Below, piece after piece: positions 4,276 to 55,929 of a DNA stretch of 64,000 nucleotides. Position 1 is the stretch's first letter; each line of letters begins with the position of its first letter. A model generated the notes under the pieces. It had not been told where the DNA came from. It saw nothing but the letters and a program-made list of their open reading frames with translations, and did no database searches. A program made the translations under genes and the position numbers. This stretch comes from Octopus vulgaris (Eukaryota): NCBI GenBank assembly GCA_951406725.2, contig OX597818.1, positions 120,962,001-121,026,000 on the forward strand, read 5' to 3'.

Positions 4276-4468
4276 ATACTAAGCAATAAAGGGTTTAGCA
4301 ACGAATTGCCTTACCACAGACCGAATTTAGAAATAGCAGTCAAAGAGTTATAGCTATTTCTTCTACTAAAAAGGAAGATCTCAGTAAAAAACACAGCAAT
4401 TGGAAGGCAGACACAAACAGGTAAGAGAGAATGAATTGACGGCAATCTATCATACAATTTTAAGTTAT

Positions 4469-4566
4469 CTACGGACGCACGTTTCGAAATCAAGTTTTTA
4501 GGAAAGCATAAGAATTAAATATTAAATAATTCTACGTTACCCAAACTTCTTTTCTCTTCAGCGTAG
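4469..4566 (-). ncRNA. Type I hammerhead ribozyme (596-bp family, copy 1)
   Basis: Reverse complement reads CTACG-CTGAAGA-[69-nt stem II]-GAAAC-GTGC-GTC-CGTAG. Confidence 0.85.
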
Positions 4567-5064
4567 AATACTATAATCATAAATGATTATATATTGAATT
4601 TTGAGATACTAGAAGGCACCAACTCAACTCAGTATCAGAGCGAGCTAGAATCCGCAACTAGTATCACCAAACTCAAAGTGTGAATGAAAGGATTGTGTCA
4701 CCAGCCCCTTCCCACCCGCGTGTAGCCAAAACAAGATGCTATGGTCATCCACTGAGATAAAATATGGTTATCCGTAATAATGAAGGGTGAAATTAATTAA
4801 TTTGGAATAATTATCAATTACACCAAGTAGTCTTCGGCATGTAAAAGCCTCATTCGAGGAAAATTTAAGTAATACTAAGCAATAAAGGGTTTAGCAACGA
4901 ATTGCCTTACCACAGACCGAATTTAGAAATAGCAGTCAAAGAGTTATAGCTATTTCTTCTACTAAAAAGGGAGATCTCAGTAAAAAACACAGCAATTGGA
5001 AGGCAGACACAAACAGGTAAGAGAGAATGAATTGACGGCAATCTATCATACAATTTTAAGTTAT

Positions 5065-5162
5065 CTACGGACGCACGTTTCGAAATCAAGTTTTTAGGAA
5101 AGCATAAGAATTAAATATTAAATAATTCTACGTTACCCAAACTTCTTTTCTCTTCAGCGTAG
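5065..5162 (-). ncRNA. Type I hammerhead ribozyme (596-bp family, copy 2)
   Basis: Same motif as copy 1, offset by exactly 596 bp. Confidence 0.85.
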
Positions 5163-6019
5163 AATACTATAATCATAAATGATTATATATTGAATTTTGA
5201 GATACTAGAAGGCACCAACTCAACTCAGTATCAGAGCGAGCTAGAATCCGCAACTAGTATCACCAAACTCAAAGTGTGAATGAAAGGATTGTGTCACCAG
5301 CCCCTTCCCACCCGCGTGTAGCCAAAACAAGATGCTATGGTCATCCACTGAGATAAAATATGGTTATCAGTAATAATGAAGGGTGAAATTAATTAATTTG
5401 GAATAATTATCAATTACACCAAGTAGTCTTCGGCATGTAAAAGCCTCATTCGAGGAACATTTAAGTAATACTAAGCAATAAAGGGTTTATTAAAACTTGA
5501 TTTCGAAACGTGCGTCCGTAGATAACTTAAAATTGTATGATAGATTGCCGTCAATTCATTCTCTCTTACCTGTTTGTGTCTGCCTTCCAATTGCTGTGTT
5601 TTTTACTGAGATCTCCCTTTTTAGTAGAAGAAATAGCTATAACTCTTTGACTGCTATTTCTAAATTCGGTCTGTGGTAAGGCAATTCGTTGCTAAACCCT
5701 TTATTGCTTAGTATTACTTAAATTTTCCTCGAATGAGGCTTTTACATGCCGAAGACTACTTGGTGTAATTGATAATTATTCCAAATTAATTAATTTCACC
5801 CTTCATTATTACGGATAACCATATTTTATCTCAGTGGATGACCATAGCATCTTGTTTTGGCTACACGCGGGTGGGAAGGGGCTGGTGACACAATCCTTTC
5901 ATTCACACTTTGAGTTTGGTGATACTAGTTGCGGATTCTAGCTCGCTCTGATACTGAGTTGAGTTGGTGCCTTCTAGTATCTCAAAATTCAATATATAAT
6001 CATTTATGATTATAGTATT

Positions 6020-6117
6020 CTACGCTGAAGAGAAAAGAAGTTTGGGTAACGTAGAATTATTTAATATTTAATTCTTATGCTTTCCTAAAAACTTGATTTC
6101 GAAACGTGCGTCCGTAG
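6020..6117 (+). ncRNA. Type I hammerhead ribozyme (596-bp family, copy 3)
   Basis: CTACG (6020) CTGAAGA ... GAAAC (6101) GTGC GTC CGTAG; stem I CTACG/CGTAG; cleavage predicted after C6112. Confidence 0.85.
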
Positions 6118-6446
6118 ATAACTTAAAATTGTATGATAGATTGCCGTCAATTCATTCTCTCTTACCTGTTTGTGTCTGCCTTCCAATTGCTGTGTTTTTT
6201 ACTGAGATCTCCCTTTTTAGTAGAAGAAATAGCTATAACTCTTTGACTGCTATTTCTAAATTCGGTCTGTGGTAAGGCAATTCGTTGCTAAACCCTTTAT
6301 TGCTCATGTAAATATATATATATATATAAATAAATATATATATATAAATAAATATATATAAATATATATATATATATATATATAAATATATATATATATA
6401 AATATATATAAATATATATATATATAAATATATATATATATATATA

Positions 6447-52773: not shown

Positions 52774-53072
52774 AGCCAAACCGGAACAGATATTTTTCAC
52801 GAGGCATTCTCATTGCTACCTCATCAATATCTGACCTAAAATTTTCAAATCGTCGCACTCGCTGGAGGCAAAAGAATTCTACAAAATTTTTTTTGCCACC
52901 CTATATTGATTAATTATGAATTTTCTGGTTAATTCCGTAATGGAATCGGCGGCTTATATTTATTTGCTGCCGATAAATTTGGCGCGAGTGCGACGATTTG
53001 AAAATTTTAGGTCAGATATTGACGAGGTAGCAATGAGAATGCCTCGTGAAAAATATCTGTTCCGGTTTGGCT

Positions 53073-53179
53073 ATTTCTTACTGATGAATCTAAGGGCCTA
53101 TGGTAGATTGGCTTGATTTAATTTAATCAGGTTAGTTTTCCATTAAACAGAAGATGAAACGGTGCATCGTCTAAGAAAT
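53073..53179 (+). ncRNA. Type I hammerhead ribozyme (493-bp family)
   Basis: ATTTCTTA-CTGATGA-ATCT...AGAT-GAAAC-GGTGCATC-GTC-TAAGAAAT; 8-bp stem I; stem III ACGG(TGCA)TCGT. Confidence 0.9.
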
Positions 53180-53565
53180 TACAGGGTAAATGTTTTTCAA
53201 TTTTCTCCTGGTTTACGGAATTGACGTTATTTTGCGGTTAAAGCTTTTGGCTGTTATTTCTAGTGGGTGAATGGCCTATTATGGCCGTTCCTTGATTGTT
53301 AATGTTGAACTTAAAAATGGTTTATGACTATTTAATTTTTTCCCACTAGGCCGCTGGAGGCAAAAGAATTCTACAAAATTTTTTTTTGCCACCCTATATT
53401 GATTAATTATGAATTTTCTGGTTAATTCCGTAATGGAATCGGCGGCTTATATTTATTTGCTGCCGATAAATTTGGCGCGAGTGCGACGATTTGAAAATTT
53501 TAGGTCAGATATTGACGAGGTAGCAATGAGAATGCCCCGTGAAAAATATCTGTTCCGGTTTGGCT

Positions 53566-53672
53566 ATTTCTTACTGATGAATCTAAGGGCCTATGGTAGA
53601 TTGGCTTGATTTAATTTAATCAGGTTAGTTTTCCATTAAACAGAAGATGAAACGGTGCATCGTCTAAGAAAT
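53566..53672 (+). ncRNA. Type I hammerhead ribozyme (493-bp family)
   Basis: Same motif at +493. Confidence 0.9.
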
Positions 53673-54058
53673 TACAGGGTAAATGTTTTTCAATTTTCTC
53701 CTGGTTTACGGAATTGACGTTATTTTGCGGTTAAAGCTTTTGGCTGTTATTTCTAGTGGGTGAATGGCCTATTATGGCCGTTCCTTGATTGTTAATGTTG
53801 AACTTAAAAATGGTTTATGACTATTTAATTTTTTCCCACTAGGCCGCTGGAGGCAAAAGAATTCTACAAAATTTTTTTTTGCCACCCTATATTGATTAAT
53901 TATGAATTTTCTGGTTAATTCCGTAATGGAATCGGCGGCTTATATTTATTTGCTGCCGATAAATTTGGCGCGAGTGCGACGATTTGAAAATTTTAGGTCA
54001 GATATTGACGAGGTAGCAATGAGAATGCCTCGTGAAAAATATCTGTTCCGGTTTGGCT

Positions 54059-54165
54059 ATTTCTTACTGATGAATCTAAGGGCCTATGGTAGATTGGCTT
54101 GATTTAATTTAATCAGGTTAGTTTTCCATTAAACAGAAGATGAAACGGTGCATCGTCTAAGAAAT
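54059..54165 (+). ncRNA. Type I hammerhead ribozyme (493-bp family)
   Basis: Same motif at +986. Confidence 0.9.
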
Positions 54166-55929
54166 TACAGGGTAAATGTTTTTCAATTTTCTCCTGGTTT
54201 ACGGAATTGACGTTATTTTGCGGTTAAAGCTTTTGGCTGTTATTTCTAGTGGGTGAATGGCCTATTATGGCCGTTCCTTGATTGTTAATGTTGAACTTAA
54301 AAATGGTTTATGACTATTTAATTTTTTCCCACTAGGCCGCTGGAGGCAAAAGAATTCTACAAAATTTTTTTTGCCACCCTATATTGATTAATTATATATA
54401 TATATATATATATATATATATATATATATATATATATACAGATATATATATATGCACATATATATATATATACATATGTAAATATATATATACATATATA
54501 CATATATACATATACACACACACATATATATATATATATATATATATATATATATATATATGTGTGTGTGTGTATATATATATATATATATATATAGAGA
54601 GAGAGAGAGAGAGGGAGAGAGAGAGAGAGAGGGTCTTCCATGCAGTTTTTGTCCATCATGTTCAGTCACAAGGCATTGTTGTCCCGCGGGTATTAGTAGA
54701 AGACCTACACTTATGGTCTTATGGTGCTGCATAGGAGGACCGAAACCATGTAGTTGCAAAGTTAGTTTCTTGTTTTAAACAAGAAATATTGGTTGAACAT
54801 TCTCATCAAAAGTGTCATAAAATACAAACATAACCACCTGACATGTTTATCTGGCATGGTTATTTACAGGTAGAGCAGTTAGTTCTTTATGTGTGAACGT
54901 TCAGTGAGAAAGGGAATATTTATGAACACTTGGCGCAGATGCAGCTGTGTGGTAAGCAGCTTCCTTCCCAACCACATGGTTCCGGGTTCAGTCTCACTAA
55001 CTGGCACCTTGGGAAAGTGTCTTCTACTATAGCCTCGGACCGACCAAATCCTTGTGAATGGATTTGGTAGACGGAAACTGAAAGAAGCCCGTCATGTATA
55101 TATATATGTGTATGTGTGTGCGTGTGTGTGTGTGTGTGTGTGTGTATTTGTTATTTGTGTCTGTGTTTATCCCCCACACCGTTGCTTCGCAACCGATATT
55201 GGTGTTTACGTCCCCGTCACTTAGTGGTTCAGCAATAAGTGATTGATAGAATAAGTTCTAAGCTTACAAAGAATAATTCCTGGGATAGATTTGTTCGACT
55301 AAAGGTGGTGCTCCGGCATGGCCGCACTCAAATGACTGAAACATGCGAAAGAAAAGAATAAAAGAATAATTGATTCAAAATTCAAATTACAAGTTGTATT
55401 TGTACTCACAGTAATGGATACTCTTGCTTGTGTTACTAAACCTCTACGTGATAATCTGCAAAAGCTGGTATTTTCAGAAAAAGAAAATGTCCAGCTGACA
55501 CGCACGTGACACACTTAATGTATACAAGCAGTAAGTAGAACAATAAAGATATGCAAGACTGTTTAAAAGATTTAACATGTAGCTCTTTACCCATGTTTTA
55601 TTTCAATTCCAGTAATGGCGATTTATTTCTTTGTTAGAAACTCACTCCATTTTTATGGGGGGAAAGGTAAATAATTAATCAAAAACTGAGACTCACACAG
55701 ACACAGTCATATATGATAAATACAGCAGGCAATGTATTTGACTTATAATTCTGGTTTAACTACACCATTATGTCGTGGTTATTCATTTCTTCAAGTGTAT
55801 CTTTACTTTCGTCAAAGTATTTTGACGGACTTTGCGATGCTTGAATAGTATATACAGTTTTTTGCTTATCTTTTTTGCTTGTCTTACATTGCTTCTTTCG
55901 TTTCGTTCTGTGTCTAGGAATTTTACTAT

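What the first reader, a model, noticed from the sequence alone, without database searches (positions are those of the whole stretch)
4276..54395. Seven independent insertions share an inverted, 3'-ends-outward architecture
Seen: at 4276-6304, 6447-7329, 16812-16996, 27445-27610, 37558-39077, 39290-46337 and 52543-54395 the left part carries the hammerhead (or ORF) on the - strand and the right part repeats it, or its downstream end, on the + strand. Six of the seven abut (TA)n, and no TSD is evident. Established: Penelope copies often have an inverted pLTR. Inference: both ends of a break in a TA tract prime reverse transcription (twin-priming-like) and the two cDNAs join at microhomology. 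The shared geometry links the non-coding arrays mechanistically to the RT/GIY-YIG element in the same window.
Basis: partly seen in the sequence, partly recalled or inferred. Interest (0 to 1): 0.78.

Follow-up and report, generated by a model that had tools for sequence, protein, structure and literature searches.

The report
Head-to-head Penelope and retrozyme insertions
Seven jumping-gene insertions here are each built from two copies joined head to head, a layout already known for Penelope-type retroelements; its presence in non-coding ribozyme repeats suggests that those repeats are inserted by the same kind of enzyme.

Summary
The geometry is real. All seven loci have a minus-strand left arm and a plus-strand right arm, 3' ends outward. 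It is the published Penelope-like (PLE) layout: Arkhipova 2013 calls head-to-head the most frequent form. Corrections: locus 1 has a 14-bp target duplication; only four loci touch (TA)n at both ends; the locus-6 range includes a 2.9-kb tandem duplication that may be an assembly error; junction microhomology is shown only at locus 7 (3 nt); the arrays share no convincing sequence with the RT/GIY-YIG element, which is itself broken. What is less ordinary: two tandem hammerhead arrays (596- and 493-bp units) carry this signature, which I did not find described for retrozymes; and at locus 6 neither arm lies within the other, so simple fold-back self-copying cannot explain it. Best reading: both nicked target strands prime reverse transcription (dual priming) and the cDNAs are joined; fold-back stays open for the short-loop loci. 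No genome-wide count was possible. This scan noted similar structures in other genomes.

The parts
4265..4278 (+). Locus 1, left copy of a 14-bp target-site duplication; its last 3 nt are shared with the end of the left arm
4276..5489 (-). Locus 1 left arm, 2.04 units of a 596-bp non-coding repeat; hammerhead cores at 5157 and 4561 (cleavage places 5070, 4474)
5492..6304 (+). Locus 1 right arm, 1.36 units; starts inside stem II of a hammerhead; full core at 6025 (cleavage 6112); 1 substitution in 813 against the left arm; 2-nt filler at 5490-5491
6307..6320 (+). Locus 1, right copy of the 14-bp duplication, after a 2-nt filler at 6305-6306
6449..7278 (-). Locus 2 left arm; hammerhead core at 6542 with weak stem I (cleavage 6492); the 5' extent beyond about 6560 is inferred
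7279..7329 (+). Locus 2 right arm, about 50 nt, about 90% like the last 50 nt of the left arm; begins within about 6 nt of the cleavage place; no TA tract behind it
16812..16947 (-). Locus 3 left arm with a hammerhead core whose stem I is not paired; includes the 17-nt spacer; 16812-16883 taken as element by inference
16948..16996 (+). Locus 3 right arm, 47-49 nt
27445..27507 (-). Locus 4 left arm, 3' half of a hammerhead
27508..27610 (+). Locus 4 right arm with 12-nt spacer, decayed core and about 30 nt one-sided tail; no TA tract near
37558..38367 (-). Locus 5 left arm; hammerhead core 37786 (cleavage 37711); runs about 116 nt further 3' than the right arm
38384..39077 (+). Locus 5 right arm after a 16-nt spacer; core 38965 with a stem I change; 6 substitutions in 685 against the left arm
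38905..41837 (.). First copy of a 2.9-kb tandem duplication (second copy 41838-44769) that spans the end of locus 5, a TA tract and part of locus 6; very recent or an assembly error
42223..44316 (-). Locus 6 left arm: 5'-truncated RT end, CX4CxxC linker, GIY-YIG domain, 3' region, hammerhead core 42347 (cleavage 42275), 52-nt end
44317..46337 (+). Locus 6 right arm: 241-nt sense-like piece, RT from about 44558, stop and frameshift near 44995-45021, GIY-YIG domain; ends 746 nt before the end of the left arm
52543..52862 (-). Locus 7 left arm, 320 nt; hammerhead core 52765 (cleavage 52675); CGC shared with the right arm at 52860-52862
52860..54395 (+). Locus 7 right arm, 3.12 units of a 493-bp non-coding repeat; cores at 53081, 53574, 54067

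Best explanation
These are insertions made by Penelope-like RT/GIY-YIG proteins, of their own RNA (locus 6) or of non-coding hammerhead RNAs in trans (loci 1, 7; loci 2-5 are either such elements or truncated ends of other PLE families). Inferred steps: the endonuclease nicks both strands of AT-rich DNA a short distance apart (14 nt at locus 1), leaving two 3' ends; each 3' end primes reverse transcription at an internal site of an uncleaved, multimeric or circular RNA, or of a second RNA from the same source, often helped by 2-3 paired bases; both cDNAs grow inward, stop, and are joined by short pairing or with filler bases. The result is two 5'-truncated arms head to head with 3' ends outward. 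Shown: the layout, the duplication at locus 1, the non-nested arms at locus 6. Inferred: the priming and joining steps and the identity of the enzyme for the non-coding families.
For: Layout at 7 of 7 loci. Hammerhead strand is a fair marker of RNA sense: among 82 related loci, 21 have a core on the ORF strand and 3 on the other. Locus 6 arms overlap by 1,348 nt, the left has 746 nt more at the 3' side, the right 673 nt more at the 5' side, 432 of them RT-coding sense sequence. At 5 of the 18 listed variant places in the overlap both arms carry a letter held by under 5% of depth in all three informative runs, which fits one source. One 14-bp duplication encloses both arms of locus 1; its arms end 6 nt apart on the RNA and those of locus 2 within 1 nt. 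Overlaps with the target at 5 ends with known continuation are 3, 0, 3, 2, 3 nt, P about 0.017 by simulation. Arms of loci 1 and 7 cross the cleavage place and exceed one unit. Of 15 joints shown (52 found) in contigs of other runs, 2 join the antisense arm to the sense arm in head-to-head order at single-locus depth, none shown is tail-to-tail. PAc protein cleaves and extends both strands and starts internally (PMC11167929).
Against: Loci 3, 4 and 5 have nested arms with 12-17 nt loops, as fold-back predicts. Microhomology at the central junction is seen only at locus 7. [quoted passage not shown] 0 of 82 related loci from short-read contigs show a same-family head-to-head pair, and 4 show converging neighbours. 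The window's own junctions were not shown to exist in other runs. Shared rare letters could reflect a different population, or gene conversion between arms.
Confidence: 0.55

Rival explanations
1. Fold-back self-priming: one cDNA (or an antisense template, as Arkhipova 2013 proposed) folds back at a short hairpin and copies itself; the copy is then joined to the other target end.
For: Published proposal for the palindromic junctions of PLEs (PMC3846280). Six of seven loci have one arm contained in the other; loci 3, 4, 5 have loops of 17, 12 and 16 nt; CGC at locus 7 fits a 127-nt loop equally well.
Against: Cannot give locus 6, where each arm has sequence the other lacks. Needs loops of 200-400 nt at locus 1 with no pairing at the junction and about 780 nt at locus 2.
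Confidence: 0.27
2. Two separate insertions of the same family, or later inverted duplication or gene conversion, happened to give adjacent opposite copies.
For: The families are abundant in other runs and neighbours do pile up in one TA tract (loci 1/2, 5/6; L080).
Against: Such neighbours meet tail to tail across a TA tract and belong to different families; the seven junctions hold no target DNA; one duplication encloses both arms of locus 1; arms share rare letters at locus 6.
Confidence: 0.06
3. The fold-backs are chimeric-read or assembly artefacts.
For: The 2.9-kb tandem duplication has only homopolymer differences; arms of loci 1 and 7 are over 99.6% alike; the window's own junctions were not shown in other runs.
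Against: Arms differ by substitutions (7 in 1,350; 6 in 685; 1 in 813; 1 in 317) and loci 2 and 4 have arms about 85-90% alike; arms have unequal 3' ends, spacers, fillers and a target duplication; an artefact would not pick hammerhead elements or one polarity; head-to-head joints stand in other runs.
Confidence: 0.05
4. Locus 2 (and perhaps the short palindromes) is a DNA-transposon MITE with 50-bp terminal inverted repeats that happens to hold a hammerhead-like motif.
For: Both arms of locus 2 end at the same base and only 50 nt are repeated.
Against: A hammerhead core lies directly inside the left end with the same polarity as at the other loci; no duplication above 4 nt.
Confidence: 0.07

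Closest known systems
Insertions of endonuclease-bearing Penelope-like elements (Arkhipova et al. 2013, PMC3846280, parts 1-4 of 5 read; Craig et al. 2021, PMC8557442, passages read)
   Same: Inverted 5'-truncated copy next to the 5' end, head-to-head as the most frequent form, one-sided tail, whole unit inside one 8-10-bp duplication or none, AT-rich or (TA)n targets, hammerhead in the terminal repeat.
   Different: Here five or six of seven loci code for nothing, two are tandem arrays, tails range from 0 to 746 nt rather than 30-40, and the duplication at locus 1 is 14 bp.
Animal non-LTR retrozymes (Cervera and de la Pena 2020, PMC7229834, one passage read; Li et al. 2026, 10.64898/2026.07.22.740005, parts 1-3 of 5 read; review PMC7761336, passages read)
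   Same: Non-coding tandem units with one type I hammerhead each, GC 35-36%, duplication longer than 4 bp when present, proposed PLE partner.
   Different: Units of 493 and 596 bp; an inverted head. 'Inverted' has 0 hits in PMC7229834 and I saw no such structure in the parts of Li 2026 read. Cervera 2014 (PMC4209133, passages) does note pairs of minimal hammerheads 100-700 bp apart on opposite strands.
L1 twin priming and the proposed dual priming (Meyer et al. 2010, PMC2837659, passages read; 10.1101/2024.08.27.596794, passages read)
   Same: Both target 3' ends prime; two inverted pieces inside one duplication; 3' ends outward; joining by short complementarity.
   Different: No poly(A); both starts are internal; arms overlap by up to 1,348 nt, closer to dual priming on two RNAs or on a multimer than to twin priming on one linear RNA.
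PAc (Poseidon of Anolis carolinensis) in vitro (Frangieh et al. 2024, PMC11167929, parts 1-2 of 4 read)
   Same: Both strands cleaved and extended, AT-rich targets, internal start sites, uncleaved RNA as template.
   Different: Other clade; start site not homologous to target there, while 4 of 5 ends here overlap the target by 2-3 nt.

Membership tests
EN+ Penelope-like element (locus 6) | RT domain followed by C-terminal GIY-YIG endonuclease in one ORF | tested here: met
   RVT_1 hit below cut-off (E 3.7e-5); 267 homologues, many with PF00078 and PF01541, named ones mostly from molluscs; both domains map in order on the right arm. The ORF is broken.
EN+ Penelope-like element (locus 6) | Hammerhead in the terminal repeat, on the sense strand | tested here: met
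   Core 42347(-), stem I 6 bp, downstream of the ORF.
EN+ Penelope-like element (locus 6) | Direct pLTR upstream of a full ORF (partial tandem) | tested here: not met
   Both arms are 5'-truncated; no upstream direct repeat. Lowers 'intact element', not 'PLE copy'.
Neptune/Nematis-type PLE | CX2-5CxxC linker before GIY-YIG and CCHH motif (definition from PMC8557442) | tested here: met
   CGRSNCATC at residue 249; C249, C254, C257, C293, C296, H315, H332 invariant in 25 sequences.
Neptune/Nematis-type PLE | Placement in the clade by RT phylogeny | not tested
   No labelled reference sequences at hand.
Non-LTR retrozyme (loci 1, 7) | Tandem non-coding units, at least two consecutive with a complete type I hammerhead | tested here: met
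   2 cores in tandem at locus 1, 3 at locus 7; no ORF of 150 aa or more there.
Non-LTR retrozyme (loci 2-5) | Tandem units | tested here: not met
   One core per arm at most; these may be monomers or truncated pLTRs of other PLEs.
Non-LTR retrozyme | Self-cleavage and circular RNA | not testable with these tools
   No RNA run held the searched stretch of locus 6; arrays were not searched; no assay.
Non-autonomous partner of the locus-6 family | Shared terminal sequence with its pLTR | tested here: not met
   All-against-all local alignment of 8 element pieces on both strands: only low-complexity matches, among them a 39-column pyrimidine-rich match of locus 5 to the locus-6 3' region.
L1-type twin priming product | Poly(A) end and two inverted pieces with a deletion or small overlap | tested here: not met
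   No poly(A); overlaps of 43-1,348 nt.
L1-type twin priming product | One duplication around both pieces; microhomology at the junction | tested here: inconclusive
   Duplication at locus 1, possible at 7, absent or unreadable elsewhere; microhomology at 1 of 2 readable junctions.

The most novel reading that the evidence does not exclude
Tandem hammerhead retrozymes are integrated directly by PLE proteins through two-ended target priming on multimeric or circular RNA, each target strand copying more than one unit, so the inverted head is a footprint of the enzyme; and the head-to-head layout of all EN+ PLEs comes from dual priming by a dimeric RT/endonuclease rather than from self-priming on antisense RNA.
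Probability: 0.4. Interest if true: 0.65.

Novelty: new variant of a known kind. Interest (0 to 1): 0.42.

Why it matters
How PLEs make their tandem/inverted insertions is named as an open problem in PMC8557442, and the case that retrozymes use PLE enzymes rests so far on co-occurrence and pLTR likeness (10.64898/2026.07.22.740005). An insertion signature shared by arrays and coding elements is a different kind of evidence. Nested versus non-nested arms gives a simple genome-scale test between dual priming and fold-back. The geometry itself is not new.

Tried and rejected
Rfam at gathering thresholds: 0 matches in the window, so hammerheads were found with a custom pattern. No whole genome is held, so no genome-wide tally. 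Minimum-energy folds of the cores mostly show other pairings than the catalytic fold and were not used as evidence. Raw-read run X20 held only simple-repeat matches and told nothing. The joint table showed 15 of 52 rows and the loose-end table 24 of 1,251, so no ratio of orientations can be given; 13 of the 15 are skips within one arm. A third possible head-to-head joint (41306 to 41777) appears only in the filler table, without its kind. Related loci: 80 kept of 165 in metagenomes and 2 in prokaryote genomes; 9 of 82 have an inverted repeat of 28 nt or more, none a same-family head-to-head pair; the L074 repeat has no hammerhead and was set aside. A rule that arms start at the cleavage place fits only the right arm of locus 2. 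Paper searches for print on inverted retrozymes or twin priming in PLEs; none described it, but the library lacks most subscription papers and I read no supplements, which may show such structures. PMC12910113 (passages) gave nothing relevant. Look-ups of earlier findings by sequence and by place were empty.
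Full report
Setting. The window is AT-rich animal DNA (GC 36%) full of microsatellites. The named homologues of its RT/GIY-YIG protein are mostly from molluscs, the nearest named one from Argonauta at 53-54%, so a cephalopod host is likely; this is an inference. No whole genome is held.

Observation. After masking simple repeats, self-BLAST finds inverted arms at all seven places. 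A strict type I hammerhead pattern finds 11 cores, against 0 in each of 20 shuffles; a relaxed pattern adds the cores of locus 2 and of the right arm of locus 5. Loci 3 and 4 carry broken cores read by eye. In all seven the left arm reads on minus and the right arm on plus. Hammerhead strand is a fair marker of RNA sense: of 82 related loci, 21 have a core on the ORF strand and 3 on the other. A list of all inverted pairs with gaps up to 4 kb showed no hammerhead-bearing pair of the opposite polarity without a TA tract between. One hammerhead, at 3800(+), has no partner that I could find, so 7 of 8 hammerhead loci are inverted.

Corrections. (a) Locus 1 has a target duplication: the 14-mer at 4265-4278 returns at 6307-6320 after a 2-nt filler; it occurs three times in 64 kb and holds the only G of the left tract. 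Locus 7 may have a 26-nt one; loci 3 and 5 lie in pure TA; loci 2, 4, 6 have none above 5 nt. (b) Ten of 14 ends lie within 12 nt of (TA)5+, but only loci 1, 3, 5, 7 on both sides. (c) 38905-41837 is repeated at 41838-44769 with no substitution and five single-base indels at homopolymer runs, with 3 shared bases at the joint; it is very young or false. Locus 6 proper is 42223-46337. (d) Loci 1/2 and 5/6 share TA tracts, where different families meet tail to tail; L080 shows the same in another organism.

Artefact test. The arms differ by substitutions (7/1,350, 6/685, 1/813, 1/317), by unequal ends, spacers and fillers, and loci 2 and 4 are about 85-90% alike between arms. Contigs of three public runs hold the locus-6 family and the locus-5 end at high depth; a fourth run did not hold them. 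Of 52 joints 15 were shown: 13 are skips within one arm and 2 (40064 to 41739, 40702 to 41756) join an antisense piece to a sense piece in head-to-head order at depth 84-86, like other single contigs; none shown is tail-to-tail. The window's own junctions were not shown in these runs, and at five places the window's letter is rare in all three, so this copy is probably absent from them. This supports the architecture as real but is not a genome-wide count. In 82 related loci from short contigs none showed a same-family head-to-head pair and four showed converging, diverged neighbours.

What the parts are. Locus 6 is a broken endonuclease-bearing PLE with the CX4CxxC linker and CCHH residues of the Neptune/Nematis type; the right arm has a stop and a frameshift, and an apparent internal deletion before the RT. 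Loci 1 and 7 meet the working definition of non-LTR retrozymes in Li et al. 2026. Loci 2-5 are single-unit and may be truncated ends of other PLEs. No array shares convincing sequence with locus 6, and Arkhipova 2013 reports family-specific terminal sequences, so each family probably has its own partner elsewhere.

Mechanism. Two models give 3'-outward arms. In dual priming each nicked target strand starts its own cDNA; arms need not be nested. In fold-back the second arm is copied from the first and must lie within it. Locus 6 is non-nested: overlap 1,348 nt, 746 nt only in the left arm, 673 nt only in the right, of which 432 are sense RT sequence. Both arms share five letters that are rare in the other runs, of 18 listed places, which fits one source, with the caveats of population difference and conversion. 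Locus 1 has both arms inside one duplication, ending 6 nt apart on the RNA, and would need an unpaired loop of 200-400 nt under fold-back. Overlap with the target at the five ends with known continuation is 3, 0, 3, 2, 3 nt (P about 0.017), weak support for short pairing. PAc protein cleaves and extends both strands and uses uncleaved RNA, but starts at a site without homology to the target. Against a single model, loci 3, 4, 5 have nested arms and loops of 12-17 nt, as the self-priming proposal of Arkhipova 2013 predicts. Central microhomology is readable at two junctions and present at one. I put dual priming at 0.55 as the main route and fold-back at 0.27; both may act.

Comparison with print. 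The inverted 5'-truncated copy, the tail, (TA)n targets and hidden duplications are described as typical of PLEs (PMC8557442); head-to-head is called the most frequent form (PMC3846280); opposite-strand hammerhead pairs were noted in 2014. L1 twin priming and a proposed dual priming give the same outward order but without long overlaps. I found no description of inverted heads on tandem retrozymes in seven searches or in the passages read; supplements were not seen. Earlier notes of this scan report similar structures in other genomes; they are unchecked leads. One of them says 5' ends cluster 8-12 nt before the core; the longer arms of loci 3 and 4 start about 6-10 nt before it, the other five loci do not.

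Verdict. A real, mostly known insertion signature. The new content is its presence on tandem retrozymes, one clean duplication, and one non-nested case that a fold-back cannot make. Interest 0.42.

Noticed in passing
window 3785-4005: An eighth hammerhead (core 3800, +) whose 3' side faces the TA tract of locus 1; no inverted partner found within 1.5 kb upstream.
   Followed up: partly
window 37176-37327: A 150-bp palindrome, arms 75% alike, between two TA tracts, with GAAAC facing outward on both arms but no full core; perhaps an older insertion of the same kind.
   Followed up: partly
window 39937-40118 (and 46337): Depth of family contigs falls about 40- to 110-fold between these two bins, close to where the right arm of locus 6 stops, then rises again at the hammerhead end; a 31-bp hairpin (39864-39894 with 40002-40032) begins 5 nt beyond that stop. 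A joint 40069 to 40038 stands in two runs. Unexplained.
   Followed up: partly
window 44317-44560 (41388-41630 in the duplicate): A sense-like piece joined to the RT region; contigs of two runs continue differently at 41630, which suggests an internal deletion by a template jump.
   Followed up: partly
window 38324-38340 and 39586-39600: Locus 5 and the locus-6 3' region share a pyrimidine-rich stretch upstream of their hammerheads (0 of 100 shuffles reach the score, but low complexity).
   Followed up: partly
window 37865-38284: Locus 5 arms contain an old internal direct repeat of about 175 bp, 70% alike, and a 43-bp doublet.
   Followed up: no
window 1172-1245, 9152-9205, 18908-18982, 51350-51414, 58663-58713: Short palindromes without a hammerhead core.
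   Followed up: partly
window 31438-32484 (+), 59886-62069 (+), 13614-14204 (-): Fragments of other non-LTR retrotransposons: two zf-RVT regions and a zinc-knuckle ORF.
   Followed up: no
window 13124-13163: About seven TTAGGG-like units inside the chromosome.
   Followed up: no
L080 1450-1920: Two PLE-like 3' ends, about 70% alike, face each other across a (TA)n tract: tail-to-tail neighbours, not an inversion.
   Followed up: partly
L081, L082 and proteins P0024, P0057, P0072, P0113, P0115: PLE proteins filed under bacterial genomes or symbiont bins; probably host DNA.
   Followed up: no
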